Positions 13,869 to 40,132 are shown, counted from the first letter of the stretch. The stretch is 41,029 bases of DNA from a virus (IMGVR_UViG_3300045988_017677), one strand, 5' to 3'. Notes: generated from the letters alone by a model not told the origin. A program made the numbers and translations.

Positions 13869-15359
13869 TCATTTTTTATACCTTCGTGCGAACAGGAGAG
13901 AACCGTTCTCATCCAATGCAATCACATCAAAACCGAACCCATTGCTAACCACGCTGCGAACTGCTCTATCATCTACAATGCGTATAAGCTCATCTGTATT
14001 GATGGATCCTGTGCACTGTAACACAACCCCTCCAGGAGTTTTTGCAATCTGCTTTGTGGCTTTTCGAATCGCCATATCTGCCGCTTTCGCTGTTGATATA
14101 CTTTTCAATTCCCACTGTTTACCTCGCCACAGGTAGTCTGGCGTTTTTATCCCCTGCGTATTCGCTTCTTTCAACAGCACGAACTTCCCGCCGAATTGAT
14201 CTCTGAGTTGGTTTGCAACTTCGATTTCGGTCTTGTGCCCTTTTATGCGGTATCCGTTCTCGTATCGCACCTTACCCATGCGGGGCTTGGCGGAATCTAT
14301 ATATTTCTTCGTAACATCCTTTGCAGATTTTTCGCTCCCCATGTGATATGGGGATAACTGTTTGCCGCTGTATCCCTGCTTCGATGCTTCCCACTGCGCA
14401 TATGTCATGTCAGATATAAGCCCGTCGCGTGTCCTACGCAGCCCGTCTGATGTATCTACCCCATCCACATCAGCAACCAGCGTGCAGCGGCAGTTATACA
14501 CAAGATAACCGGGTGCAGACGCATCGCCGGGGTACATAATCTCGTACCCATCGATTTTAAACGGCTTGTCGATTTCGGCCCGCTGACCGTCCAGCATTGC
14601 ATGGGCGTGCCGAGTTCGTCCGTCCAGCGTCGCCACCCACTCCCGCTTGAGCTTGATGCCCATATTTTCCGCCGCCGCGTAGCTGTCCATGCGCCCCGCG
14701 TTCTGTGCACCTGTCACGGCAGTTCTGGCGGTACGGATAGCGCTGTCGCGGCTCATGGTGGTAATGCGCTTTTGCAGGTCGTCCGCCATGTGCTTGATGC
14801 TCTTTCCCTGCAAGATGGAGCTGGTGACACTGGCCGTAATTTGCTTCTTGCCGTATGCGAGATCAATCCCGCGTTTCAGCGCTCTGCCCTTTGGATAGTA
14901 CGGCATCAACTCCGGTTGCTCCGCAATCAGGCGTTTAACCGTCTGCTCGTCCCACAGGTCAAAGCCGACGTTGCCCACGACCTGCTCGATGGTGTACGCC
15001 GAATAGTTGCGGTTGAGGGAGTAGATACCGGGCGTAGCATCGTTGGTGTAGGACACCGCCACAGCGTTTGCATCGGTCATGCGGTGCGCCACCTTGTCCC
15101 GCATAGCTTGATAGCGTTCTCCGCGCCCGATCTGGTTTAGCCGCCATTGCTTATAGTCAGCCTCCGTCCATTCCTTGCCGTTCTGCACGGTGCCGATCAG
15201 AGCCTTCATTTCCTCGTCGCGCTTTTTGAATTGCTCAAAATATGCGTCGATGGTAGCTTGCAGTTCTTCCCCCGCCTCGCGGTATAGCGTTGCAATACGA
15301 CGTTCCAGCTTCGCAAGCTCCTTATCGGTCAGCTTGTGTCCGAGGTCACTGTTCGCCAT
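13869..15359 (-). CDS. Minor head protein (MuF / SPP1 gp7 family) fused to a C-terminal PD-(D/E)xK-like nuclease/toxin-type domain
   Basis: 496 aa. MuF motifs are WVATLDGRTRHAHAMLDGQ and YLVYNCRCTL (aa ~240-295). An extra ~190 aa carries HKTEIEV, TPDYLWRG and QWELKS. Confidence 0.85.
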   Translation of the reverse strand: MANSDLGHKLTDKELAKLERRIATLYREAGEELQATIDAYFEQFKKRDEEMKALIGTVQNGKEWTEADYKQWRLNQIGRGERYQAMRDKVAHRMTDANAVAVSYTNDATPGIYSLNRNYSAYTIEQVVGNVGFDLWDEQTVKRLIAEQPELMPYYPKGRALKRGIDLAYGKKQITASVTSSILQGKSIKHMADDLQKRITTMSRDSAIRTARTAVTGAQNAGRMDSYAAAENMGIKLKREWVATLDGRTRHAHAMLDGQRAEIDKPFKIDGYEIMYPGDASAPGYLVYNCRCTLVADVDGVDTSDGLRRTRDGLISDMTYAQWEASKQGYSGKQLSPYHMGSEKSAKDVTKKYIDSAKPRMGKVRYENGYRIKGHKTEIEVANQLRDQFGGKFVLLKEANTQGIKTPDYLWRGKQWELKSISTAKAADMAIRKATKQIAKTPGGVVLQCTGSINTDELIRIVDDRAVRSVVSNGFGFDVIALDENGSLLFARRYKK

Positions 15360-19447: not shown

Positions 19448-20068
19448 TATTGTGCGGCATTGCAGTCCTGCCCTGCTTTAGCGCTTCAGGGAAAGTCCCC
19501 GTCACTCGCCGTGGTCTCCCCTTACGGGGCACCTATGCCGCATATTGGCCGTCTTCCCGCTTAGATTGTCACATCACCGATTGCTGCTTTACATGCACAG
19601 CACCATTACGCTGAGGCGGTCCCCTCCCACGGTGCAGTTTTCAGCGGGCATTGTCATTTCCATGTGAGCCACGACGAACGGTCTCACATTGTCCGGGTGC
19701 GACCCGGCATCTGGCGCAGACGGCAGGACTTGAACCTGCAACATACCTCCGGCGCGGTGCTCTTACCAACTGAGCTACGTCTGCATATGTCCCCTCTGGG
19801 TCACATCGTTGAGAGGTGCGAGGGGTCCTGTTGGTGCCGTGTGGGAGGTGCGACCTCCCGCCCCGGATCGTGGGGTGCAACGAGCGCACGGCATATAACA
19901 ACAGCCCATAGGTTTCCCTACAGGCTGTTTGTGCCGGTACGCCCGTTCCCGGGGCCTCTTGCGCGGTGCGCCCAATACCGGCGGCGCACATAGTATCGAA
20001 AGGAGGGAAGATGAAAGCTACATGGTGTAGCCGGAGTGGATGTGTTGGCTTTTGCCCAATCATCCACT
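19448..20068 (-). ncRNA. Candidate large structured non-coding RNA (ROOL/GOLLD-class hypothesis)
   Basis: About 620 nt with no credible ORF between the RinA-like gene and the terminator. It is GC-rich and has many stable hairpins, including a GAAA tetraloop hairpin (19900-19929, read on the minus strand) and two hairpins sharing a UCGCA loop. A possible extended-10 element TGGTAAAAT lies at 20075-20083. Confidence 0.4.
19712..19784 (-). tRNA. tRNA-like element with a truncated anticodon arm (possible degenerate tRNA-Arg(CCG) or tRNA mimic)
   Basis: The minus strand reads GCAGACG-TA-GCTC-AGTTGGTAA-GAGC-A-[ACC GCGCCGGA GGT]-ATGTT-GCAGG-TTCAAGT-CCTGC-CGTCTGC-G-CCA. Acceptor, D and T arms are canonical. 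The anticodon arm is 3 nt short, with a 3-bp stem and an 8-nt loop. Confidence 0.55.
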
Positions 20069-34075: not shown

Positions 34076-34657
34076 ATGGAGAAATCGTTGCAGGACACTT
34101 GTCGGGACGCAAAACTGGAACAGCACATCACGGCGCAGGAGATAGCAGACCAATCCGGTGTGCCTTTGTCCAGCGTCAACAACTTTTTCGCGTCTACATC
34201 TAAAGCACCGGGCGTGTATGCGGCTGGCCCCATCTGCAAGGTGCTGGGGGTGTCTATGGACCGTTACTTTGGCATTGTAGAGGTTGTTTTGGCGCAAGAC
34301 CAAATCAAGCAGCTCCAGCAAGTCCATGACGAGGATGTGCGCCTTGCACGGATAGAGGGCGCATACGATGAGCTGTCTAAATCAGCAGAGGAGCAGAAGA
34401 GAAAAGCAAGGCGGCAGCGCACGATGCTGTATATCACATCGCTGCTGTCCGCTATCCTGCTGGGTATAGTTACATGGTATGTGGCGCTTGATTACCATGT
34501 GCAGGACGAAGGCCTAATCCGATCCAGGACAGCCGGTACGATTGCATGGATTGTCATTGCGCTTTTGGCGTTGGGTATCGGCGTACTTACATCCGTGCTA
34601 TTGTCCACTCTTGCGGCGGGCAAAAAATCCAAACAAGACGAGGAAGCAGAAAAATGA
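34076..34657 (+). CDS. Membrane-anchored XRE-type HTH regulator (HTH, coiled coil, 2 TM)
   Basis: 193 aa from the ATG at 34076. HTH segment ITAQEIADQSGVPLSSVNNFF. A charged helix follows, then two TMs (LYITSLLSAILLGIVTWYVAL and IAWIVIALLALGIGVLTSVLLSTL). The stop overlaps the int start (ATGA). Confidence 0.7.
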   Translation: MEKSLQDTCRDAKLEQHITAQEIADQSGVPLSSVNNFFASTSKAPGVYAAGPICKVLGVSMDRYFGIVEVVLAQDQIKQLQQVHDEDVRLARIEGAYDELSKSAEEQKRKARRQRTMLYITSLLSAILLGIVTWYVALDYHVQDEGLIRSRTAGTIAWIVIALLALGIGVLTSVLLSTLAAGKKSKQDEEAEK

Positions 34658-35748
34658 GCAACTGCATTAAATGCGGAACAACTCTTGTCCCCGGCGCTGT
34701 ATATTGCCATCTCTGTGGAAAAAAACAGGTAACAGAGCGGCGAAAAGCATTGAAGCGGGCAAACGGCACCGGAACTGTATACAAACTGGCTGGGCGTAGA
34801 AAATCGCCTTGGGTGGCAGCAAAAAACAAAGTGATTATCGGGCATTATGAGCGCAAAACGGGCGCTCTGGACGCTTTGGAGCGGTTGAACGGCAAGAGCT
34901 TAACGGAGCGGTATAATATGACCTTTGCAGAAGTCTTTGATGTGTGGAAAGAGGAGCATTACAAGGAGATCGGCAAGCAGGGGGTAGAATCATATAACAA
35001 CGCCTACCGCATATTTACGCCGTTGCACGGGAAAAAGTTTCGCGATCTCCGCACCGCAGACTTTCAGGCCGTACTTGACCCGCACATGGCCAAAAGCCAT
35101 TCCACCGTGAACAAGTACAAGCAGCTCATAACGCAGATGTCGAACTGGGCAATCCGGGAAGAAATATGCACGACAAATTTTGCAAAATTTGTGCGATTGC
35201 CGGAGAATGTCAAAAAAGAAAAGGACATCTTCACGGAGGAAGATATCCGTAAATTGGAATCCGATAACAGCGATTCGGCAAAAATTGTCTTGATGCTGCT
35301 GGCAACGGGTATGCGTATCGGGGAACTGTTCTCTTTGCCGCTGGCTGACTGCCACGGCGATTATGTGATTGGCGGCGAAAAAACCGAAGCCGGCAGAAAC
35401 CGAATTATCCCCATTCGACCGGAGGGGAAACAATACTTTGCCTACTTTGCGAAGCGAGCAACGGGGGAGCTGCTGTTATCCGGCTACGATGGGCAAAAAG
35501 TCCCGGCAAACTTCCGCAGGCGAGATTTTTACCCACTCCTTGACCGACTGGGCATAGAGCGCAAGACCCCACACGCCACACGCCACACATACGCATCCCG
35601 GGCGGTAAAAGAGGGATTGCCCCCAGAAATGCTGCAAAAAATACTCGGGCACGCCGATTATTCCACCACCGCAAACATATATACGCACATCGACGCGCAG
35701 ACACTTGTGGATGCGGTTACTAACACGTTACTAACAAATAAAAAATAA
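34654..35748 (+). CDS. int: Tyrosine integrase with N-terminal zinc-ribbon
   Basis: 364 aa. Motifs: CIKCGTTLVPGAVYCHLCG, then ATGMRIGEL, HATRHTYAS and LGHADYSTTANIYTH. Confidence 0.95.
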   Translation: MSNCIKCGTTLVPGAVYCHLCGKKQVTERRKALKRANGTGTVYKLAGRRKSPWVAAKNKVIIGHYERKTGALDALERLNGKSLTERYNMTFAEVFDVWKEEHYKEIGKQGVESYNNAYRIFTPLHGKKFRDLRTADFQAVLDPHMAKSHSTVNKYKQLITQMSNWAIREEICTTNFAKFVRLPENVKKEKDIFTEEDIRKLESDNSDSAKIVLMLLATGMRIGELFSLPLADCHGDYVIGGEKTEAGRNRIIPIRPEGKQYFAYFAKRATGELLLSGYDGQKVPANFRRRDFYPLLDRLGIERKTPHATRHTYASRAVKEGLPPEMLQKILGHADYSTTANIYTHIDAQTLVDAVTNTLLTNKK

Positions 35749-35760
35749 GCAAAATAGAAA

Positions 35761-35794
35761 AGCCTTGAAACCGTTGAGTTTCAAGGCTTTTTTT
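35761..35794 (+). terminator. Rho-independent terminator of int
   Basis: Stem agccttgaaa (35761-35770) pairs with tttcaaggct (35779-35788), followed by tttttt. Confidence 0.8.
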
Positions 35795-35840
35795 GGTGCC
35801 CCGTCGGGGATTCGAACCCCGGACACCCTGCTTAAAAGGC
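35794..35840 (-). mobile_element. attP core: 3' 47 nt of a tRNA-Lys(UUU) gene
   Basis: The minus strand reads GC-CTTTTAA-GCAGG-GTGTC-CGGGG-TTCGAAT-CCCCG-ACGGGGC-A-CCA. This covers the anticodon loop through the CCA end. The 5' half of the tRNA is absent. It lies immediately downstream of int. Confidence 0.75.
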
Positions 35841-35969: not shown

Positions 35970-36284
35970 TCATTTTCCCAACTTGCGCATGACGCTATTA
36001 TACACGCGCTCATTGATAATCTTTAGGCTGTCCATAAGCTCATCCATGACAGCCCAAGCCTTATCATTGTCTGTGGCGGAAACGGCTCGTAAAAACTCAC
36101 TGTCTCCGTAAATTTCAACAGGGGCAGGCGCGGCGGAGTACATAGCCGGAGCATGATTTGCTGTTTCTTTGCCCTGCTGGTTCAGCACCGTGTATAATAC
36201 AGCCAGCTTTTCGTAATTTGACCAGCTTGATTCTTCTGTTTCAAGCCGCGCAATCCATTTTTTGATCTCGCGATCGTCTACCAA
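35970..36284 (-). CDS. Hypothetical protein (cargo block)
   Basis: About 104 aa if it starts at the TTG at 36284, 7 nt after GGGGGTG. The track start is TTG at 36323. The start is uncertain. Confidence 0.5.
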   Translation of the reverse strand: MVDDREIKKWIARLETEESSWSNYEKLAVLYTVLNQQGKETANHAPAMYSAAPAPVEIYGDSEFLRAVSATDNDKAWAVMDELMDSLKIINERVYNSVMRKLGK

Positions 36285-36298
36285 GGGGACGCACCCCC

Positions 36299-36691
36299 TT
36301 AGATCTCCACAGCGTCCATGCAACGCTGGATAGCCTTGCGGATGCTTTCGTCATCGGCGTTGTTCAACATCTCCTGCAACTGGCGCTTCATATCGTCCCG
36401 GGCACCGTCCCGGGAATAATGGCCGCGGACATAATGGGTGTCCCGGCGGGCATAAGAGCTGCCTTTACCATAGGTTCCGCGCATGTCCGCCTCCCAGTCA
36501 CCGTCCCGGGAATATCGGCGCTGGGAATAACCGTCGTCCTCCATCATCTCGATCTTGTCGATGTTCTTGATGGTGTCGGTCAGCTTGTGCGCGATCTCAA
36601 GGTCGCCCGCGCCCAGGTCGCCCTTGCGCGCCAGCTCGTCGAGTTCGTCGCACAGCATATTGCGAAGCTCATACATTGCTTTCTTACTCAT
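36299..36691 (-). CDS. Hypothetical charged R/D/Y/S-rich protein (cargo block)
   Basis: 130 aa from the ATG at 36691 with SD AAAGGAGAA. The central low-complexity segment is GYSQRRYSRDGDWEADMRGTYGKGSSYARRDTHYVRGHYSRDG. Confidence 0.6.
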   Translation of the reverse strand: MSKKAMYELRNMLCDELDELARKGDLGAGDLEIAHKLTDTIKNIDKIEMMEDDGYSQRRYSRDGDWEADMRGTYGKGSSYARRDTHYVRGHYSRDGARDDMKRQLQEMLNNADDESIRKAIQRCMDAVEI

Positions 36692-36704
36692 GTCCATTCT
36701 CCTT

Positions 36705-37127
36705 TCACGCGATTCTCTCAACCGTCAGGTTCGAGTTGGCGAAGTTGACGGCCTGAGTGCTGGTGTTTTCCATTGCGACCGTCAGGCAGCAGCCTTTCGG
36801 GACGCAGACCTGTGCGGAAACATAAATGTTAAAGTAGTTTTCTACCGCCGCAGGCGTGACAATAGCTGTTGCACTGGTCAACGGCTCTCCATTGATGGCA
36901 AGCGCCGCCGTGATGGCCTCGACCGTGCCTCCGGTGGGAATAGCGATGTTGCCGCCATAGGAGACCCTAAACAGGGCGCGGTTTTGATTGGTGATGCCGC
37001 GCAGCGTGACAATGCCGGCGCCCTGGCGATGCACGATACACGGCTTGCTATTGACCGCCGTTTCGGTCAAGGGAACGTTCTGGCCTGCGGCTACGCTCAC
37101 AATATTCGCGTTTGTGTACTCTGCCAA
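36705..37127 (-). CDS. BclA-C-terminal-domain / C1q-TNF-like jelly-roll protein (tentative)
   Basis: 140 aa with a TTG start after AAAGGA. The pattern NVPLTETAV...GIVTLRG...FRVSYGGNIAIP...LAINGEPL...NSNLTVERIA parallels the BclA CTD as I recall it. Confidence 0.5.
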   Translation of the reverse strand: MAEYTNANIVSVAAGQNVPLTETAVNSKPCIVHRQGAGIVTLRGITNQNRALFRVSYGGNIAIPTGGTVEAITAALAINGEPLTSATAIVTPAAVENYFNIYVSAQVCVPKGCCLTVAMENTSTQAVNFANSNLTVERIA

Positions 37128-37165
37128 AATAATCAGTCCTTTCTAAAGTGGTCGAAATCGACCAT

Positions 37166-37200
37166 GTTAAAATACAGCGGCGAGGCAATAGCCCCGCCGC
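37166..37200 (-). terminator. Rho-independent terminator after the Gly/Cys-rich membrane protein gene
   Basis: On the minus strand, stem GCGGCGGGGC / GCCTCGCCGC (one mismatch) with loop TATT, followed by TGTATTTTAA. Confidence 0.6.
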
Positions 37201-37281
37201 GTTGTTGTCAGTATCGGCACGGGGCCGACCATCTCGGTAACGTCACCGATATGGTGACCGAGAAGCTATGCTATGCAGTTG

Positions 37282-38013
37282 TCAGCAGCCGCAACCCTGA
37301 TTGCAACCGCAGCCGCCGTAACCGCTGCCCGCCCACGGGTTACAGGTAATGTAGGCAGGAGAAGGGCACGGACGCAACTGCGAGATCAGATAGTTGTTCT
37401 GCGCGGCCTGAGATGCGGCCAGCTTCAAGCCCTGATTCTCGCTCTGGAGATCCTGCAGCTTGCTCTGCGTCAGGAAGTCGAGGATCGCGCGGCTGTTGCT
37501 GTTGGCGTTGTCGATGATGTCGCGCGTCGCGTTCTGCACAGTGTTGCGCGTGTCACACGCCTGCGCCGCCATGTCGTAGCGCACGCCCTCGATGCTGCGC
37601 TGGGTGTTACAGCAACATTCAGCGGCCTGCATCTGCATGGCGTTGAGCTGCTGCATCAGCGCGGCCTGCTGGTTGCTGCGGGACAGCTCGGCCTGCGCAA
37701 AGCCGTTTGCCATCGCCATATTGGTGCCGTTGACAAGCTGCGCTTGCTGGTAAAACCCGTTGCAAAGGCCGTCGTTCACACTGTCGATTTTGCGCTCGAT
37801 GTTGGAGAAGTCGGACGCCAGCACATAGCCGTCGACCACGCCGCCGGAATTGCCAGCGTTGTTGCCCCAGCCGTTGCCGCCCCAGCCGCAGAACGCGAAC
37901 AGGAACAGAACGATAAGCCACCACGCGCCGTCACCGCCAAACCCAAAGCCACCGCTATTGGTAGGCTGCACCGGCATCGTCATCATGGGAGCGCCGCCAT
38001 CGGAAAGAGACAT
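37282..38013 (-). CDS. Gly-rich, single-TM, Q/N-rich helical protein with Cys-rich C-terminus
   Basis: 243 aa. Segments: GGFGFGGDGAWWLIVLFLFAFCGWGGNGWGNNAGNSGG, then a Q/N/A-rich helical region with AAECCCN, and a C-terminus ending GSGYGGCGCNQGCGC. Confidence 0.65.
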   Translation of the reverse strand: MSLSDGGAPMMTMPVQPTNSGGFGFGGDGAWWLIVLFLFAFCGWGGNGWGNNAGNSGGVVDGYVLASDFSNIERKIDSVNDGLCNGFYQQAQLVNGTNMAMANGFAQAELSRSNQQAALMQQLNAMQMQAAECCCNTQRSIEGVRYDMAAQACDTRNTVQNATRDIIDNANSNSRAILDFLTQSKLQDLQSENQGLKLAASQAAQNNYLISQLRPCPSPAYITCNPWAGSGYGGCGCNQGCGC

Positions 38014-38067
38014 AGTATCACTCCTTTTACAAAATTTTAATTTATCAAATCGTGGCCACGATGTTGA

Positions 38068-38268
38068 TTACTGCATTAAACTCTGAAACTGCTTCGCCAT
38101 CTGCTGAAGCTGGTTGAGCTGCTGCTGGTTCAATTTGCCGCTCTGCAAAAGCTTTTCAACCTCTGCTTTTGGGTCGCCTTGGAAATTCGCCTTGAACTGC
38201 TTGAACTGCTGCACCATCTGCATAAAGCTGTTGCCGCCGCCCATTGCACCGAAAAACGGATTATTCAT
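38068..38268 (-). CDS. Small Q-rich hypothetical protein
   Basis: 66 aa with the segment NQQQLNQLQQMAKQFQSLMQ. It overlaps the upstream gene by 8 nt. Confidence 0.55.
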   Translation of the reverse strand: MNNPFFGAMGGGNSFMQMVQQFKQFKANFQGDPKAEVEKLLQSGKLNQQQLNQLQQMAKQFQSLMQ

Positions 38269-38686
38269 CGCTCTTTTCCTCCTTGCGCTTCTTGCCCTTC
38301 ATTTCGCTCACAAGCGCCGCCAGCGCGTCAAACTCCTTGCGAGTGACAAATTCCACGCCCTTTTCCTGCGGAGCTGTACGGGGTGCTTCTGCGCGCTCTA
38401 CAAGGTCGTAAATCTTGAGCGTCGGCCTGCCACTTGCATCTGCTTGCTTGAGATAGACGGTAGGCGCGGTACTATCCCATAAGGTAACCGCCGCGTTAGG
38501 CGCTATCATCCAATTCCGAGCCTCCTGCTCGCCGCTTACCCATTGCACCCCGCCCTGTGCGATTGGATTTTGTGGGGCCTGTGGCGTCTGCATCATAGGC
38601 ATTTGCTGCTGCCGCATTTGCATGAGGTTGTCCGGCATAGGCTGCGGGTAATAAGGGTTTTGGTAGCCGTAAGGGGTAAAAGCCAT
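38261..38686 (-). CDS. Hypothetical protein with P/Q/M-rich N-terminus
   Basis: 141 aa with SD GAAAGGATGG. The N-terminus YGYQNPYYPQPMPDNLMQMRQQQMPMMQTPQAPQNP is followed by a globular-looking core GGVQWVSGEQEARNWMIAPNAAVTLWDS. Confidence 0.6.
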   Translation of the reverse strand: MAFTPYGYQNPYYPQPMPDNLMQMRQQQMPMMQTPQAPQNPIAQGGVQWVSGEQEARNWMIAPNAAVTLWDSTAPTVYLKQADASGRPTLKIYDLVERAEAPRTAPQEKGVEFVTRKEFDALAALVSEMKGKKRKEEKSDE

Positions 38687-38688
38687 AA

Positions 38689-39072
38689 TTATTCCATCCT
38701 TTCCGTTGTCCAGTAATATAAGGGCACTTCGCCGCCCGAATTCCAGGAATCAAAAATTACGCCATCCTGTACGCAGACCACATGCCCGGATAAAGCAAGG
38801 ATATAAGTCCCTTTTGGGTGCTCCTCCGCAAACCGCGCCACCGTGTAGCAATCGGGGCATGTGTCCGGGATAATATGCCGCCGATATCCGATACTGCGCA
38901 AGTAAGCCCCCCAACAGGCGTTAGCGTTTGGTAAATCTCCGACCAAGTAGCCCTGCATGCACAGCCGGAGGTAAACCTCGCCCCAATCCTTTCCCGTGGC
39001 CTTACAGATCGCACGGACAGTGCAATCTGACACGTTTTTCCCGCAGGGATTTGGATTAAAATATTTATACAT
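38689..39072 (-). CDS. Putative papain-like cysteine peptidase (Cys...His...Asp)
   Basis: 127 aa from the ATG at 39072 (MYKYFNPNPCGKNVSDCTVRAI...LSGHVVCVQDGVIFDSW). An alternative start is ATG at 39111. Confidence 0.5.
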   Translation of the reverse strand: MYKYFNPNPCGKNVSDCTVRAICKATGKDWGEVYLRLCMQGYLVGDLPNANACWGAYLRSIGYRRHIIPDTCPDCYTVARFAEEHPKGTYILALSGHVVCVQDGVIFDSWNSGGEVPLYYWTTERME

Positions 39073-39205
39073 GATCGCAATCCCTATATAGGCTTTCAGC
39101 AATTTCCACATACGCTAAAAGCCCCCTGGGATCGTCTGCGTACAAGATGCAAATATCCTGCGCCATTTGCGCGGTAAACCCGCATTTGATTAATCGCTCG
39201 TACAT
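39065..39205 (-). CDS. Small hypothetical protein (46 aa, below the track cutoff)
   Basis: Hand translation gives MYERLIKCGFTAQMAQDICILYADDPRGLLAYVEIAESLYRDCDHV. SD AAGGAGG lies 7 nt upstream. The stop overlaps the next start by 8 nt. Confidence 0.4.
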   Translation of the reverse strand: MYERLIKCGFTAQMAQDICILYADDPRGLLAYVEIAESLYRDCDHV

Positions 39206-39229
39206 ATTCCAGCCTCCTTGCCTCTATAA

Positions 39230-39262
39230 TAAAAAAAATCCGGGCAGATAAACTGCCCGGAT
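39230..39262 (-). terminator. Rho-independent terminator after the RHH gene
   Basis: On the minus strand, stem ATCCGGGCAG / CTGCCCGGAT with a 5-nt loop, followed by TTTTTTTT. Confidence 0.8.
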
Positions 39263-39283
39263 TCTGCCTGGATTCTGCAATGA

Positions 39284-39424
39284 TTAATCTTCTTTTTTTA
39301 TTGCCTCTTTAATTAGTTTCTCGATGTAGTTCGAGACGCTGCGGCCATCCGCTTCGGCGGCGGCCTGCAGTTGGGATTTGAGATCCGGTGTGATCCGGAT
39401 TACGAGACGATCGGTTTTTGCCAT
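39284..39424 (-). CDS. CopG/ParD-type ribbon-helix-helix protein (46 aa)
   Basis: MAKTDRLVIRITPDLKSQLQAAAEADGRSVSNYIEKLIKEAIKKED. The start lies 1 nt after the stop of the acidic gene. The longer track ORF is an out-of-context hydrophobic extension. Confidence 0.65.
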   Translation of the reverse strand: MAKTDRLVIRITPDLKSQLQAAAEADGRSVSNYIEKLIKEAIKKED

Positions 39425-39425
39425 A

Positions 39426-39638
39426 TCAAAAATCCTCACCAGAGACATACTCAGCAACACAAATAGGATCAGAAGTGGGATTACCATTTGCGTCATAACC
39501 ACCATCAATTTCAGCGATACGCTCATAGCCCCACTGCTTAGCCATTGCAACAGCCTCATTCCAATCAAAACTACCGGTGCCCCAATCATTATCGCCGACG
39601 TCTTGCTGCACTGCATACCAATTCTTATTTTCACTCAT
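39426..39638 (-). CDS. Highly acidic W-rich small protein (70 aa)
   Basis: SD GAAAGGAG is present. The protein has 14 D/E versus 3 K/R. The N-terminus is MSENKNWYAVQQDVGDNDWGTGSFDWNEAV. Confidence 0.65.
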   Translation of the reverse strand: MSENKNWYAVQQDVGDNDWGTGSFDWNEAVAMAKQWGYERIAEIDGGYDANGNPTSDPICVAEYVSGEDF

Positions 39639-39763: not shown

Positions 39764-39801
39764 AAAACGAAAAATAGCCGCGCCCAAAAAGGGCACGGCT
39801 A
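39762..39801 (-). terminator. Rho-independent terminator ending the late/lysis transcript
   Basis: Stem tagccgcgccc / gggcacggcta pairs at 10 of 11 positions. On the minus strand it is followed by TTTTTCGTTTTT. Confidence 0.65.
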
Positions 39802-39804
39802 CTT

Positions 39805-40041
39805 TTAGGAATTGAATGCATCCGCCAGTTTTTGGTATGCTCGGCGTCGCAATTTGTAAAATCCATCTACGCTGATATGCAGTTTTGCCGCCGTCTGTAC
39901 GCAGGTGCGGCCAAAAACGTCCACGTCAATTACACAGGTTTCCTCGTCTTCCGGCAGCCCTACCGCGCGGATCGTTTCTGTGGCGCGGCATGGTGCCATA
40001 GTGGATAGTTTTTTGCGGATCCTTTTGTGCTGATCTATCAT
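39805..40041 (-). CDS. Small sigma region-4-like HTH protein
   Basis: Only the last 78 codons of the track ORF are retained (MIDQHKRIRKK...VFGRTCVQTAAKLHISVDGFYKLRRRAYQKLADAF). The upstream part overlaps the amidase in another frame. The SD is weak. Confidence 0.4.
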   Translation of the reverse strand: MIDQHKRIRKKLSTMAPCRATETIRAVGLPEDEETCVIDVDVFGRTCVQTAAKLHISVDGFYKLRRRAYQKLADAFNS

Positions 40042-40132
40042 TTCCCACGGTGTGCCGTGGAGGTGCGGATGCGTTGAGCACGAGCGTGAGGCCGGCGTAG
40101 CGATGTCCTCTGCGCCCTCCAGGTGTTTACCG

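What the first reader, a model, noticed from the sequence alone, without database searches (positions are those of the whole stretch)
37282..39205. Five-gene cargo operon of compositionally unusual proteins between the lysis genes and attP
The operon is tightly coupled (overlaps of 8, 0 and 8 nt) and is bounded by terminators at 39230-39262 and 37166-37200. It encodes five proteins. The first is a 46-aa protein. The second is a putative papain-like Cys peptidase (SDCTVRA...GHVVCVQDG..D). The third is a protein with a P/Q/M/Y-rich N-terminus. The fourth is a 66-aa Q-rich protein. The fifth is a 243-aa protein combining several unusual parts. It has a Gly-rich flanked TM (GGFGFGGDGAWWLIVLFLFAFCGWGGNGWG, reminiscent of YjcZ-type sporulation peptides). 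It also has a long Q/N-rich helical region with a CCC motif and a GCGCNQGCGC tail, and Cys-rich tails of this kind occur in self-assembling spore-coat and exosporium proteins. I recognise none as a standard phage function. The position next to attP and outside the virion and lysis modules is where lysogenic-conversion genes sit. My working hypothesis is a secreted or envelope-associated self-assembling, disulfide-cross-linked structure processed by the peptidase. It could alter the cell or spore surface, or it could be an exclusion or defence system of a new type.
Basis: inference. Interest (0 to 1): 0.65.

Follow-up and report, generated by a model that had tools for sequence, protein, structure and literature searches.

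The report
Conserved gut-phage membrane module, function unknown
The five genes are real, but they are part of a larger module of uncharacterised proteins that recurs, usually beside the lysis genes, in thousands of viruses of gut anaerobes (Clostridia, Bacteroides and even methanogens), so it is a widespread virus system of unknown function and not strain-specific prophage cargo.

Summary
Five minus-strand ORFs lie at 37282-39205, with the stated overlaps and flanking terminators, between the holin/amidase genes and the integrase/attP.

The unit is larger than reported. It runs on through three more genes (g6-g8, 35970-37127). The whole set is colinear in 80 of 80 close IMG/VR relatives and in about 45 of 80 diverse GTDB loci, while the flanking lysins, holins and integrases vary.

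None of the products matches Pfam, NCBIfam, PADLOC or PDB. PHROGs lists them only as families of unknown function.
- **g2:** a confidently folded small protein with invariant Cys17 and His97 and near-invariant Asp108. A papain-like fold is suggested but not statistically shown.
- **g5:** a large family, with at least 1734 clusters at 50% identity. It has a Gly-flanked TM segment, two long helices, a near-invariant CCC motif and a Cys-rich tail.

The lysogenic-cargo reading is weakened. The module is present in the integrase-less Butyrivibrio phage Ceridwen, in C. perfringens phages and in crAss-like phages. g5, with other neighbours, is also in a cultured Bacteroides phage and in Methanomassiliicoccales viruses. 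No partner protein has an obvious N-terminal hydrophobic signal sequence, by reading only.

My best reading, at low confidence, is a membrane-anchored complex with a peptidase partner that acts on lysis or egress.

The parts
39805..40044 (-). Small sigma-70 region-4-like HTH gene (x100) that precedes the module in relatives. The start codon is uncertain: the ORF could extend to 40107 or 40434, overlapping the amidase frame.
   Evidence: Pfam Sigma70_r4_2 at E=0.0094, below the gathering cutoff. Present upstream of the module in nearly all of the 80 close loci and in about 25-32 diverse loci. The L096 counterpart hits PHROG sigma-factor families.
39770..39806 (-). Terminator-like hairpin after x100, marking the end of the lysis transcription unit.
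   Evidence: 16 pairs followed by a T-run.
39235..39265 (-). Terminator-like hairpin immediately upstream of the module.
   Evidence: The hairpin plus T-run is present in 39 of 71 unique upstream sequences, against 7.7% of shuffles.
39226..39231 (-). A -10-like hexamer (TATTAT) that directly follows the terminator T-run, 20 nt before the g1 ATG. Candidate autonomous promoter.
   Evidence: Sequence. 37 of 71 unique upstream sequences carry a hexamer matching at least 5 of 6 positions, 12-40 nt before the start, against 20% of shuffles. The commonest form is TTTTTTGTATCATA. Consensus match only; not shown to be functional.
39065..39205 (-). g1, a 46-aa protein specific to the close relatives.
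   Evidence: ORF. 40-100% identical copies in 77 of 80 IMG/VR loci. Only 5 of 82 diverse loci have it. No family hit.
38689..39072 (-). g2, a 127-aa small enzyme with a Cys-His-Asp arrangement (papain-like fold suggested).
   Evidence: phrog_3754 at 8e-35. N6, N8, D16, C17, R20, W30, L58 and H97 are invariant and D108 is nearly invariant. AF2 pLDDT 87. 23 BFVD matches at E<1e-3, all uncharacterised phage proteins. No significant PDB match.
38261..38686 (-). g3: a Y/Q/P/M-rich N-terminus, a small conserved domain (WV.GE..A..Y.VAPN..V.LWD....IY.KS.D..G.P), and a C-terminal helical, charged tail.
   Evidence: phrog_21718 at 2.5e-32. Found in 65 of 84 loci just upstream of g5. Alignment A6. No Pfam or PDB match.
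38068..38268 (-). g4, a 66-aa Q/M/N-rich protein that looks helical by sequence (no structure prediction was run on it).
   Evidence: phrog_22984 at 1.8e-21. Its two sequence clusters together cover 54 of 84 loci directly before g5.
38049..38062 (-). Perfect 14-bp palindrome (hairpin) in the g4-g5 spacer, followed by a U-rich stretch and the element GATAAAT. Candidate attenuator or internal terminator-promoter junction.
   Evidence: Unique exact match in the window. 31 of 40 unique g4-downstream sequences have a perfect inverted repeat with arms of at least 6 nt, against 8.4% of shuffles, and the stem sequences differ between loci.
37282..38013 (-). g5, the 243-aa signature protein. It has a short acidic N-tail, a Gly- and Trp-flanked TM segment (about residues 29-45), two long helices (about 68-140 and 146-213), a near-invariant CCC (133-135) and C153, and a Pro-rich then Cys-rich C-terminus.
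   Evidence: phrog_16490 at 3.4e-43. 1734 clusters at 50% identity at E<=1e-3. Conserved motifs. CCC present in 109 of 120 full-length representatives. AF2 secondary structure, but low confidence at pLDDT 54.
37128..37281 (-). Structured g5-g6 intergenic region: three hairpins, the last a terminator at 37177-37200.
   Evidence: MFE -66.9 kcal/mol, z=-4.84. Hairpin 1 varies in sequence but keeps its pairing, while hairpins 2 and 3 are conserved. No Rfam family.
36705..37127 (-). g6, a 140-aa protein that looks beta-rich by eye (no structure prediction was run) and carries an invariant GCC motif. It is possibly a BclA_C/C1q-like jelly roll. In other loci a non-homologous Cys-rich protein (g6') occupies this slot.
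   Evidence: phrog_20016 at 1.6e-52. 7599 homologues. C113 and C114 invariant. The Pfam BclA_C model is hit by only 1 of 22 members, at E=0.0014. g6' occupies the same slot in 22 loci, and hhalign finds no homology between g6 and g6'.
36299..36691 (-). g7: an N-terminal and a C-terminal segment that read as helical, flanking an R/Y/S/G/D-rich low-complexity stretch.
   Evidence: phrog_28802 at 1.6e-11. Found in 41-44 diverse loci after g6. Proteins in the same slot of other loci share a domain with a crAss-like protein.
35970..36284 (-). g8, about 104 aa, the last gene before attP. A TTG start at 36284 is inferred.
   Evidence: Present in close relatives and in 18-22 diverse loci, including CPD1_042. 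In L088 its N-terminal part is fused to the NxDG-HW-YSDY domain.

Best explanation
The five genes are the upstream part of a self-contained module of 7-8 genes, plus a small sigma-region-4-like gene, carried by viruses of strictly anaerobic gut microbes.

**Proposed working**
- g5 is the core. It would be a membrane-anchored, probably oligomeric, long-helix protein with conserved cysteine clusters.
- Its C-terminal Pro- and Cys-rich tail would dock a small Cys-bearing partner that reads as beta-rich. That partner is g6, or the unrelated g6' in other phages.
- Low-complexity and coiled-coil adaptors (g3, g4, g7, g8) would assemble on the complex from the cytoplasm.
- A small peptidase-type enzyme would mature or turn over a component. 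Here it is the Cys-His-Asp protein g2. In other phages an HExxH or PolyVal metallopeptidase takes that place.
- The complex would act at the host cytoplasmic membrane around the time of lysis. Its role would be to control the timing or completion of lysis and egress, and perhaps to respond to redox or metal state through the cysteines. It would not serve to convert the lysogen.

**Shown**
- The gene set and its conserved order.
- Its distribution across phage groups.
- The conserved residues.
- The lack of any known family.
- The recurrent position next to lysis genes.
- The terminator and promoter-like boundaries.

**Inferred**
- The physical interactions between the products.
- The membrane topology of g5.
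- Peptidase activity of g2.
- The link to lysis.
For: 1. **Conserved set.** g1-g8 are colinear in 80 IMG/VR loci. The order g2-g3-g4-g5-g6-g7(-g8) holds in about 45 of 80 GTDB loci. Across 84 loci, g3 is in 65, g4 in 54 and g2 in 47.

2. **Position next to lysis genes in unrelated phage groups.**
   - Diverse lysins (M23, Amidase_3, CHAP-like, Amidase_2, M15-like) and holins lie 2-4 kb upstream in Clostridial phages. These neighbour assignments were made by reading representative sequences, not by a family scan.
   - In L096 the module lies between an XhlA-like gene (also assigned by eye) and the amidase.
   - In crAss-like Buchavirus the order is holin, LysB-like, NxDG-HW-YSDY protein, g5, a 145-aa protein, inside the late block.
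   - In cr116_1 the holin and the L,D-carboxypeptidase lie about 1-2 kb upstream.

3. **Not tied to lysogeny.**
   - Ceridwen has the g2-to-g6 set and no integrase.
   - crAss-like phages and Bacteroides phage C3_41T2LP carry g5.

4. **A second family is shared across phyla.** The crAss-like NxDG-HW-YSDY protein with an RGY-rich stretch matches proteins in the g7/g8 slots of Firmicutes loci at E from 5e-28 to 3e-12.

5. **The peptidase is replaceable by type.** It is g2 (Cys) in 47-55 loci. It is a small HExxH protein in L096 and cr116_1, and a PolyVal metallopeptidase in C3_41T2LP and cr116_1.

6. **Conserved cysteines on both proposed partners.** g5 has CCC in 109 of 120 representatives, averages 9.4 Cys per protein, and has a Cys-rich tail. 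g6 has an invariant GCC. g6' has an invariant CxxxCxxC.

7. **Partners probably stay in the cytoplasm.** None has an obvious signal sequence or TM segment in its translation (by reading, no predictor run).

8. **Ecology.** Every g5 match among 50,697 phage records comes from a gut, rumen or faecal anaerobe virus.
Against: - No experiment or expression data bear on timing or function.
- In the Clostridial phages, terminators separate the module from the lysis genes and it has its own -10-like element. That fits expression in the lysogen or early in infection at least as well as late expression.
- In CPD1, L135 and C3_41T2LP the module lies beside replication and recombination genes.
- Accessory genes commonly collect after the lysis cassette for no functional reason.
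- Lysis of monoderm hosts needs only a holin and an endolysin, so no missing step calls for this system.
- The g5 structure prediction is poor (pLDDT 54). Its TM flanks are almost uncharged on both sides, so topology is undecided.
- g2 homologues also occur without g5: in Bacillus Tsamsa-like phages, where one was inspected and sits in an early-type region, in Geobacillus GBK2, and in Lak phages by sequence match only. g2 may therefore not be dedicated to the module.
- The g5-g6 interaction was not modelled.
Confidence: 0.3

Rival explanations
1. This is a moron-type accessory cassette transcribed on its own by host RNA polymerase, in the lysogen and/or early in infection. Its membrane complex would protect the infected cell or lysogen by superinfection exclusion or another envelope-level defence. 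This is.
For: - Terminator, then a -10-like element, then a ribosome-binding site before the first gene, in many relatives.
- Terminators on both sides.
- The usual position between the lysis cassette and an opposite-strand integrase: 25 loci with a tyrosine integrase and 4 with a serine recombinase.
- g5 is a membrane protein.
- In Bacillus phage Izhevsk, the one Tsamsa-like phage inspected, the g2 homologue sits in an early-type region beside an Ocr-like anti-restriction gene and a Ser/Thr kinase.
- As general knowledge, virulent phages also carry exclusion genes (T4 imm and sp).
Against: - No PADLOC match.
- No sensor, nuclease or ATPase component.
- To my knowledge, described exclusion proteins are single small membrane proteins or lipoproteins and are phage-specific. 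This is a 7-8-gene set kept across three host phyla.
- In crAss-like phages the genes lie inside the late structural and lysis block, and no separating terminator is annotated in the records. I did not scan for terminators there.
Confidence: 0.25
2. The products are virion-associated. g5 and its partners would be packaged or ejected proteins, or a fibre or decoration complex, that act on the membrane of the next host. The peptidase would process them during maturation.
For: - crAss-like and Bacteroides phage records annotate the g5 homologue as 'spike protein/glycoprotein' or 'outer capsid protein/viral fiber'.
- In Buchavirus the genes lie between tail genes and next to a 'virion structural protein'.
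- As I recall from Iyer et al. 2017 (not checked here), PolyVal metallopeptidase domains are typical of proteins delivered with phage DNA.
- A host-independent role would explain spread across bacterial and archaeal viruses.
- There is weak profile similarity to influenza HA2 (E about 0.05).
Against: - In the window phage and its relatives the genes lie outside the virion block, which runs from the portal through the tape measure and Prophage_tail gene to the DUF859 gene. They also lie beyond the lysis genes and two terminators.
- The record annotations are weak in-silico labels.
- The HA2 matches are not significant.
- No virion proteome is available.
- TM proteins are unusual in tailed-phage particles.
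Confidence: 0.15
3. One reading: a secreted or envelope-associated, disulfide-cross-linked, self-assembling structure, processed by the peptidase, that alters the cell or spore surface of the lysogen.
For: - The composition recalls coat and exosporium proteins: Cys-rich g5, a BclA_C-like pattern in g6, Q-rich g3 and g4, and R/Y/S-rich g7.
- One g6 member hits Pfam BclA_C at E=0.0014.
- As general knowledge, coat proteins also lack signal peptides.
- Most hosts are Clostridia.
Against: - The module or its core occurs in phages of hosts that do not sporulate: Butyrivibrio fibrisolvens, Bacteroides, and Methanomassiliicoccales viruses.
- It occurs in phages with no lysogeny module.
- No YjcZ or other sporulation family match.
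- BclA_C membership is not supported.
- No partner has an obvious export signal, judged by reading the translations.
- The hosts are strict anaerobes, where extracytoplasmic disulfide formation is not expected.
Confidence: 0.07

Closest known systems
Phage morons / lysogenic-conversion cassettes (lambda and HK97-type transcription units bounded by their own promoter and terminator)
   Same: The module sits at a module boundary between the lysis genes and attP/int. Terminator hairpins lie on both sides, and a -10-like element follows the upstream terminator.
   Different: - It is not sporadic. It is constant while its flanks vary.
- It has 7-8 genes.
- It occurs in integrase-less and crAss-like phages, and its core gene occurs in archaeal viruses.
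- Expression from the prophage is untested.
Spanins and other lysis accessory proteins (lambda Rz/Rz1, P2 LysB/LysC)
   Same: g5 has an N-terminal TM anchor followed by two long helices with conserved cysteines and a Pro-rich end. It recurs beside holin and endolysin genes, and in Buchavirus it lies two genes downstream of a LysB-like gene.
   Different: - No sequence relationship was found.
- No outer-membrane lipoprotein partner or embedded lipobox ORF was seen.
- Most hosts are monoderm Clostridia, which have no outer membrane to fuse.
- The g5 family also occurs in archaeal viruses.
Papain-fold cysteine enzymes (clan CA peptidases, C39 leader peptidases, NlpC/P60, Josephin)
   Same: g2 has the residue order Asn...Cys(helix start)...His(strand)...Asp, with these residues conserved. 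The weak Foldseek neighbours are mostly papain-fold proteins: Josephin-2, Tae4, an NlpC/P60 endopeptidase, phytochelatin synthase and FMDV Lpro.
   Different: - No match is significant. The best PDB E-value is 0.12 at TM 0.4-0.5.
- Pfam and PDB profile searches are empty.
- There is no ABC transporter as in C39 systems.
- Its real relatives are uncharacterised phage proteins in many phage groups.
BclA C-terminal domain / C1q-TNF-like jelly rolls of exosporium proteins and viral fibres
   Same: g6 has the right size, an alternating pattern that reads as beta strands, and a C-terminal '...NLxIxRVA' ending. One family member touches Pfam BclA_C at E=0.0014.
   Different: - The match is below the Pfam threshold and seen in only 1 of 22 members.
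- There is no collagen-like stalk.
- The fold was not modelled.
Class I viral fusion proteins (influenza HA2)
   Same: A Gly-rich hydrophobic segment near the N-terminus is followed by long helices with conserved cysteines, and a protease is encoded alongside. The g5 profile touches about 50 HA2 sequences at E 0.05-0.5. Public crAss-like records label the homologue 'spike protein/glycoprotein'.
   Different: All scores are non-significant and are probably driven by coiled-coil and N/Q composition. There is no evidence for cleavage, for trimeric hairpin formation or for any fusion event.

Membership tests
Papain-like (clan CA) cysteine peptidase: g2 | Catalytic Cys at the N-terminus of a helix, His on a following beta strand, and a third Asp/Asn, all conserved in that order | tested here: met
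   C17 and H97 are invariant and D108 is at least 90% conserved over members 28-55% identical. In the AF2 model a helix starts at residue 17 and a strand at residue 98.
Papain-like (clan CA) cysteine peptidase: g2 | Significant sequence match to a curated peptidase family | tested here: not met
   Pfam, NCBIfam and PDB profile searches are empty. One member hits Peptidase_C23 at E=0.014 only.
Papain-like (clan CA) cysteine peptidase: g2 | Significant structural match to a papain-fold protein | tested here: inconclusive
   Foldseek against PDB gives no hit at E<=0.001. The weak hits are enriched in papain-fold proteins (Josephin-2 at E 0.22 and TM 0.40, plus Tae4, NlpC/P60, phytochelatin synthase and Lpro).
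Papain-like (clan CA) cysteine peptidase: g2 | Hydrolytic activity on a peptide or amide substrate | not testable with these tools
   Needs biochemistry.
C39 double-glycine leader peptidase system | Peptidase_C39 domain, normally fused to or beside an ABC exporter, with a GG-leader substrate | tested here: not met
   No C39 Pfam hit. No transporter gene appears in any locus inspected. The 'S-x-x-D-I-x-x-V-x-G' N-terminus seen in many g5 proteins resembles a GG leader only by eye, and the window's own g5 lacks it.
BclA_C / C1q-TNF-like domain: g6 | Match to Pfam PF18573 or C1q at or above the gathering score | tested here: not met
   The window protein gives no hit. One of 22 diverse members hits at E=0.0014. 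The PDB profile search is empty. hhalign against a recalled BclA CTD gives probability 0.5%.
BclA_C / C1q-TNF-like domain: g6 | Trimeric jelly-roll fold | not tested
YjcZ-type sporulation peptides: g5 N-terminus | Match to the NCBIfam/TIGRFAM YjcZ (tiny TM) models | tested here: not met
   NCBIfam returns 0 families for g5 at E<=1.
i-spanin / u-spanin: g5 | N-terminal TM plus a long helical extracytoplasmic domain, beside holin and endolysin genes | tested here: inconclusive
   A TM helix at 31-42 and helices at 68-140 and 146-213 are predicted, but at pLDDT 54. Lysis genes lie nearby. Topology is undecided.
i-spanin / u-spanin: g5 | Outer-membrane lipoprotein partner (o-spanin) and a diderm host | tested here: not met
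   No lipobox ORF lies within or next to g5 in the ORF list. Most hosts are Clostridia, for example Hominenteromicrobium and Oscillospiraceae, which are monoderm by general knowledge.
Moron (autonomous accessory transcription unit) | Own promoter and terminator, inserted between functional modules | tested here: met
   Terminators at 39235-39265 and 37177-37200. Across relatives a terminator is followed by a -10-like element, enriched over shuffles. The promoter evidence is a consensus match only.
Moron (autonomous accessory transcription unit) | Expressed from the repressed prophage; sporadic distribution | tested here: not met
   Expression is not testable here. The distribution is the opposite of sporadic: 80 of 80 close loci, and the module stays constant while its flanks vary.
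Known anti-phage defence systems | Any component matching a PADLOC-DB model | tested here: not met
   0 families for all ten proteins at E<=1.

The most novel reading that the evidence does not exclude
g5 and its partners form a previously unrecognised machine, shared across the gut virome by viruses of Firmicutes, Bacteroidota and methanogenic archaea. It would consist of a membrane anchor with long helices and cysteine clusters, matured by a peptidase and sensitive to redox or metal state, plus a small beta-rich head and low-complexity adaptors. It would carry out a membrane step that does not depend on envelope type. Examples are gating of lysis or egress by redox or oxygen state, or a fusion-like or disruption-like remodelling of the membrane. 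This would be a new class of phage late-function system specific to anaerobes.
Probability: 0.15. Interest if true: 0.85.

Novelty: categorically new. Interest (0 to 1): 0.6.

Why it matters
If the module is one functional system, it is among the most widespread uncharacterised gene sets of the gut virome.

- **Scale.** The g5 family alone has at least 1734 clusters at 50% identity. g5, g2 and g6 each have hundreds to thousands of homologues.
- **Host range.** The core crosses from Clostridial siphoviruses to crAss-like phages, a Bacteroides phage and viruses of methanogens. Few accessory phage functions are known to be shared across such different cell envelopes.
- **What it would reveal.** Working out its role would expose a step of infection in strict anaerobes that model phages of aerobes do not show. 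It would also give a function to a recurrent block of 'hypothetical proteins' in gut phage annotation.
- **It can be tested now.** Three cultured pairs carry it: Butyrivibrio virus Ceridwen on B. fibrisolvens DSM 3071, CPD1-type phages on C. perfringens, and phage C3_41T2LP on Bacteroides uniformis.

The label 'categorically new' means that no component could be placed in any characterised family or system. It does not mean that a new mechanism has been demonstrated.

Tried and rejected
**Single-sequence and profile searches**
- Pfam, NCBIfam, PADLOC and PDB searches of g1-g8, as single sequences or as profiles, returned nothing usable.

**Structure**
- Foldseek of the g2 model against PDB gave no significant hit.
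- AF2 of g5 with a diverse alignment was too low in confidence (pLDDT 54) to justify a fold search.

**Specific homology ideas**
- g6 compared with g6': the first comparison was an artefact, because alignment A5 contained a g6' row. The clean comparison shows no homology.
- The idea that the N-terminal extension of Bacteroides and archaeal g5 proteins is a fused g4 domain gave scores of only 3-7 bits and was rejected.
- The idea that many g5 N-termini are double-glycine leaders cut by g2 was kept only as an untested lead. The window's g5 lacks the motif, there is no transporter, and an N-out topology would place the leader outside the cell.

**Topology**
- The positive-inside rule is undecided. 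Positive charges average 0.40 on the N-side and 0.74 on the C-side, and both sides are net acidic.

**RNA and regulatory elements**
- RNAalifold on the g4-g5 spacer failed because MAFFT did not put the stems in register. I replaced it with per-sequence inverted-repeat statistics.
- Rfam found no family for either intergenic element.
- The palindrome is not a repeated operator in the window.
- The sigma-70 promoter scan found nothing upstream of g1, g5 or g6, because it requires a -35 box.

**Literature and database names**
- Searches on C. perfringens phages, BclA and prophages, YjcZ, Ceridwen, methanogen viruses, Bacteroides uniformis phages and crAss 'spike protein' found no paper that characterises these families.
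- Source names for cluster members were all 'hypothetical protein'.

Full report
**1. Observation**

The window is a complete-looking temperate siphovirus genome. Pfam recognises an SPP1-type portal, a Mu-F-like protein, a tape-measure protein, a Prophage_tail protein, a DUF859 protein, a Dp-1-type holin and an Amidase_3+SPOR endolysin. An integrase-sized ORF lies on the plus strand at 34546-35748. A tRNA 3'-end fragment beside it marks attP.

- g1: 39065-39205.
- g2: 38689-39072. Homologues are 125-127 aa, which supports the second ATG.
- g3: 38261-38686.
- g4: 38068-38268.
- g5: 37282-38013.

The junctions are as follows. g1/g2 and g3/g4 overlap by 8 nt. g2/g3 are 2 nt apart. g4/g5 are separated by 54 nt that contain a perfect 14-bp palindrome (38049-38062). 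Terminator-like hairpins lie at 39235-39265 and 37177-37200. The quoted peptide motifs are all there.

**2. The unit is larger and strongly conserved**

Three further genes on the same strand follow before attP: g6 (36705-37127), g7 (36299-36691) and g8 (35970-36284).

- In 80 IMG/VR loci recovered with g5, the order g1-g2-g3-g4-g5-g6-g7-g8 is kept wherever the contig extends far enough. A small sigma-70-region-4-like gene (window 39805-40044) lies upstream. Per-gene identities differ widely, for example 41-96% for g6, which indicates mosaic exchange.
- In 80 more distant GTDB loci (g5 identity down to about 32%), profile searches find g2-g3-g4-g5-g6-g7(-g8) in about 45.
- Clustering of all neighbours over 84 loci finds g3 in 65, g4 in 54, g2 in 47 and g7 in 41. 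The slot after g5 holds either g6 or a Cys-rich protein, g6', found in 22 loci. hhalign finds no homology between g6 and g6'.
- The flanks vary. Upstream lie at least five kinds of lysin and many holins. Downstream lie tyrosine integrases (25 loci) or serine recombinases (4 loci) on the opposite strand. The lysin and holin types were assigned by reading representative sequences.
- Hosts named in the records are mostly gut Clostridia: Oscillospiraceae, Acutalibacteraceae, Lachnospiraceae, Ruminococcus, Agathobaculum and Hominenteromicrobium.

**3. What the proteins are**

None matches Pfam, NCBIfam, PADLOC or any PDB sequence, either singly or as profiles. PHROGs places g2-g7 in families of unknown function. 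All source names are 'hypothetical protein'.

*g2*
- It folds confidently (pLDDT 87).
- N6, N8, D16, C17, R20, W30, L58 and H97 are invariant and D108 is nearly invariant, across members only 28-55% identical. Those members include phages of Bacillus, Geobacillus and Butyrivibrio.
- Its structural relatives in BFVD are 23 uncharacterised phage proteins from many host groups.
- In PDB nothing is significant, although the weak hits are mostly papain-fold proteins.
- 'Papain-like Cys enzyme' is therefore a reasonable but unproven label.

*g5*
- It defines a large family. At least 7885 of the 8000 scored candidates match at E<=0.001 in the 90%-identity collection, and 1734 clusters match in the 50%-identity collection.
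- Its conserved features are:
  - a short acidic N-tail;
  - a hydrophobic core flanked by Trp and Gly;
  - the motif RKLDG..NGLCDGFY;
  - a near-invariant CCC, present in 109 of 120 full-length representatives;
  - the motif TRDIIDNQNAN.RAIL;
  - the motif LAASQ.AQN.YL..LRP.P.PAY.V.NPY;
  - a terminal GCGC-type cluster.
- AF2 predicts a TM helix and two long helices, but with low confidence (pLDDT 54).
- The TM flanks are almost free of positive charge on both sides, so the topology is open.

*The other products*
- g6 carries an invariant GCC and looks like a BclA_C/C1q-type domain by eye. Only one of 22 members touches that Pfam model, at E=0.0014.
- g3, g4 and g7 are rich in low-complexity sequence (Y/Q/P/M, Q/M/N and R/Y/S/G/D respectively) and have segments that read as helical.
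- By reading the translations, none of g1-g4 or g6-g8 has an obvious N-terminal hydrophobic signal sequence or TM segment. No predictor was available.

**4. Distribution beyond temperate Clostridial phages**

This is the evidence that changes the interpretation most.

- *Butyrivibrio virus Ceridwen.* This cultured plaque-former has g2-g3-g4-g5-g6 directly after its endolysin. It has no integrase, and its authors regard it as virulent (PMC7372960).
- *C. perfringens phage CPD1 and relatives.* They carry a variant set: g3-like, g4-like, an HNH endonuclease, g5, g6' and g8-like. It lies between early genes and recombination/replication genes.
- *L135, a Bacilli-binned phage.* The order is g3-g4-g5-g6-g7-g2, next to a family-B DNA polymerase.
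- *crAss-like phages, a Bacteroides phage and archaeal viruses.* Full-length g5 homologues with all the motifs occur in at least 15 crAss-like phages of two families, in the cultured Bacteroides uniformis phage C3_41T2LP, and in viruses assigned to Methanomassiliicoccales.
- *Buchavirus (crAss-like).* The local order is holin, LysB-like protein, a protein with an NxDG-HW-YSDY domain and an RGY-rich tail, g5, a 145-aa protein, and a 188-aa protein. This lies inside the late block.
- *A second shared family.* That NxDG-HW-YSDY protein matches proteins in the g7/g8 slots of several Firmicutes loci at E from 5e-28 to 3e-12. At least two families are therefore shared across phyla.
- *The peptidase varies by type.* In cr116_1 and C3_41T2LP, small metallopeptidases (HExxH and PolyVal types) stand where the Firmicutes phages have g2. 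L096 has two small HExxH proteins and no g2.
- *Homing endonucleases.* HNH endonucleases are inserted in or beside the module in Dulem virus 33, CPD1, L096, C3_41T2LP and cr52_1.
- *Ecology.* Every g5 match among 50,697 phage records comes from a virus of gut, rumen or faecal anaerobes.
- *g2 without g5.* g2 homologues also match sequences in Tsamsa-like Bacillus phages, Geobacillus GBK2 and Prevotella Lak megaphages. In the two regions inspected (Bacillus phage Izhevsk and GBK2) no g5-like gene is nearby. In Izhevsk the gene sits in an early-type region beside a Ser/Thr kinase and an Ocr-like gene.

**5. Regulatory anatomy**

- *Upstream of the first module gene.* 39 of 71 unique sequences have a hairpin plus T-run, against 7.7% of shuffles. 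37 of 71 have a -10-like hexamer 12-40 nt before the start codon, against 20% of shuffles. The typical form is TTTTTTGTATCATA. In the window the hexamer is TATTAT at 39226-39231. The sequences are related to one another, so these are not independent counts. The pattern is nonetheless a terminator-promoter junction.
- *Between g4 and g5.* 31 of 40 unique sequences carry a perfect inverted repeat with arms of at least 6 nt right after the g4 stop codon, against 8.4% of shuffles. The stem sequences differ between loci. A U-rich stretch and a (C/G)ATAAAT element follow, about 25 nt before the g5 start.
- *Between g5 and g6.* The spacer folds into three hairpins (z=-4.84). The last hairpin is the terminator, and the g6 ribosome-binding site abuts its T-run.
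- No Rfam family covers either element.
- The 'five-gene operon' therefore looks like two or three linked transcription units (g1-g4, g5, g6-g8) with conserved attenuator-like junctions.

**6. Interpretation**

The data fit a multi-protein system built around g5. I propose that g5 is a membrane anchor and stalk, and that its Cys- and Pro-rich tail binds the Cys-bearing partner encoded next to it. That pair is the most constant feature and is kept even where the partner family is replaced. The low-complexity and coiled-coil proteins would assemble on it from the cytoplasm. A small peptidase-type enzyme would process or turn over a component. The replacement of a Cys enzyme by metallopeptidases argues that a peptidase role belongs to the system.

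For the biological role I favour a function at the membrane around lysis or egress (confidence 0.3). The reasons are that the module recurs beside holin and lysin genes in unrelated phage groups, that it sits inside the late block of crAss-like phages, and that it does not depend on lysogeny. The cysteine clusters and the restriction to viruses of strict anaerobes suggest dependence on metal or redox state. That last step is inference only.

The main rival is an autonomously transcribed protective or exclusion cassette (0.25). The terminator-promoter boundaries, the usual position before the integrase, and the early-region context of the g2 homologue in Bacillus phage Izhevsk all support it. 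The four readings sum to about 0.77. The remainder is for functions I have not thought of.

**7. Comparison with known systems, and verdict**

The closest analogies are morons (layout), spanins and lysis accessory proteins (g5 architecture and position), papain-fold enzymes (g2), BclA_C/C1q domains (g6) and class I fusion proteins (weak, non-significant HA2 similarity, plus the public 'spike protein' labels). Every membership test that needed a significant sequence or structure match failed or was inconclusive.

The finding is real, extends beyond its stated coordinates, and is much more widespread than a cargo operon. It has no characterised counterpart that I could find in databases or papers. 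Its function remains unproven. Three cultured phage-host pairs make it directly testable.

Noticed in passing
window 19715-19784 (-): Rfam's tRNA model matches here at 52 bits (E 1.8e-08, full length), but ARAGORN reported no tRNA anywhere in the window. The site lies within the 140-aa ORF at 19641-20063.
   Followed up: no
window 39284-39638 (-): A two-gene unit sits between two terminators, between the lysis genes and the module. It consists of a 70-aa acidic protein and a 46-aa ribbon-helix-helix/Arc-like protein (Pfam RHH_5 at 7.7e-08). Only two of the 80 close relatives have the RHH gene (L008, L074). It looks like a separate small insertion, possibly a regulator or antitoxin pair.
   Followed up: partly
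window 35798-35840 (-), with terminator 35758-35791: A tRNA 3'-end fragment (...GGTTCGAATCCCCGACGGGGCACCA), followed by a terminator, lies right beside the integrase gene. This is the likely attP core, matching the 3' end of a host tRNA gene. ARAGORN finds no complete tRNA there.
   Followed up: partly
window 13869-15359 (-): The Mu-F-like minor head protein carries a weak CdiA_C toxin-domain match near its C-terminus (Pfam E 2.5e-04, below the cutoff). Toxin domains fused to Mu-F-like proteins have been described in other phages, as I recall.
   Followed up: no
L001 7280-7831; L163 23542-24192; L096 11807-12640; L168 4270-4890; L170 6602-7180: HNH-type homing endonuclease genes are inserted inside or directly beside the module in five unrelated phages: Dulem virus 33, C. 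perfringens CPD1, a Lachnospiraceae prophage, Bacteroides phage C3_41T2LP and crAss-like cr52_1. In two of them the insertion is in the same g4-g5 spacer.
   Followed up: partly
window 37128-37281 (-), and the same spacer in L003-L082: The g5-g6 spacer is a conserved, strongly structured RNA-like element (three hairpins, z=-4.84) with no Rfam family. The first hairpin changes sequence between loci but keeps its pairing. The second (GGTCGGCCCCGTGCCGA) is conserved in sequence.
   Followed up: partly
L170 and L171 (crAss-like cr52_1, cr109_1): Several genes around the g5 homologue contain in-frame stop codons when translated with table 11. This is consistent with stop-codon reassignment, which I recall has been reported for some crAss-like phages.
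   Followed up: no
L169 3652-4686 and L170 1460-2485: A reverse-transcriptase gene lies a few genes upstream of the g5 homologue, after a tail-protein gene, both in a Methanomassiliicoccales virus and in crAss-like cr52_1. In cr52_1 the tail protein is annotated as similar to a major tropism determinant. This may be a diversity-generating retroelement, but that was not checked.
   Followed up: no
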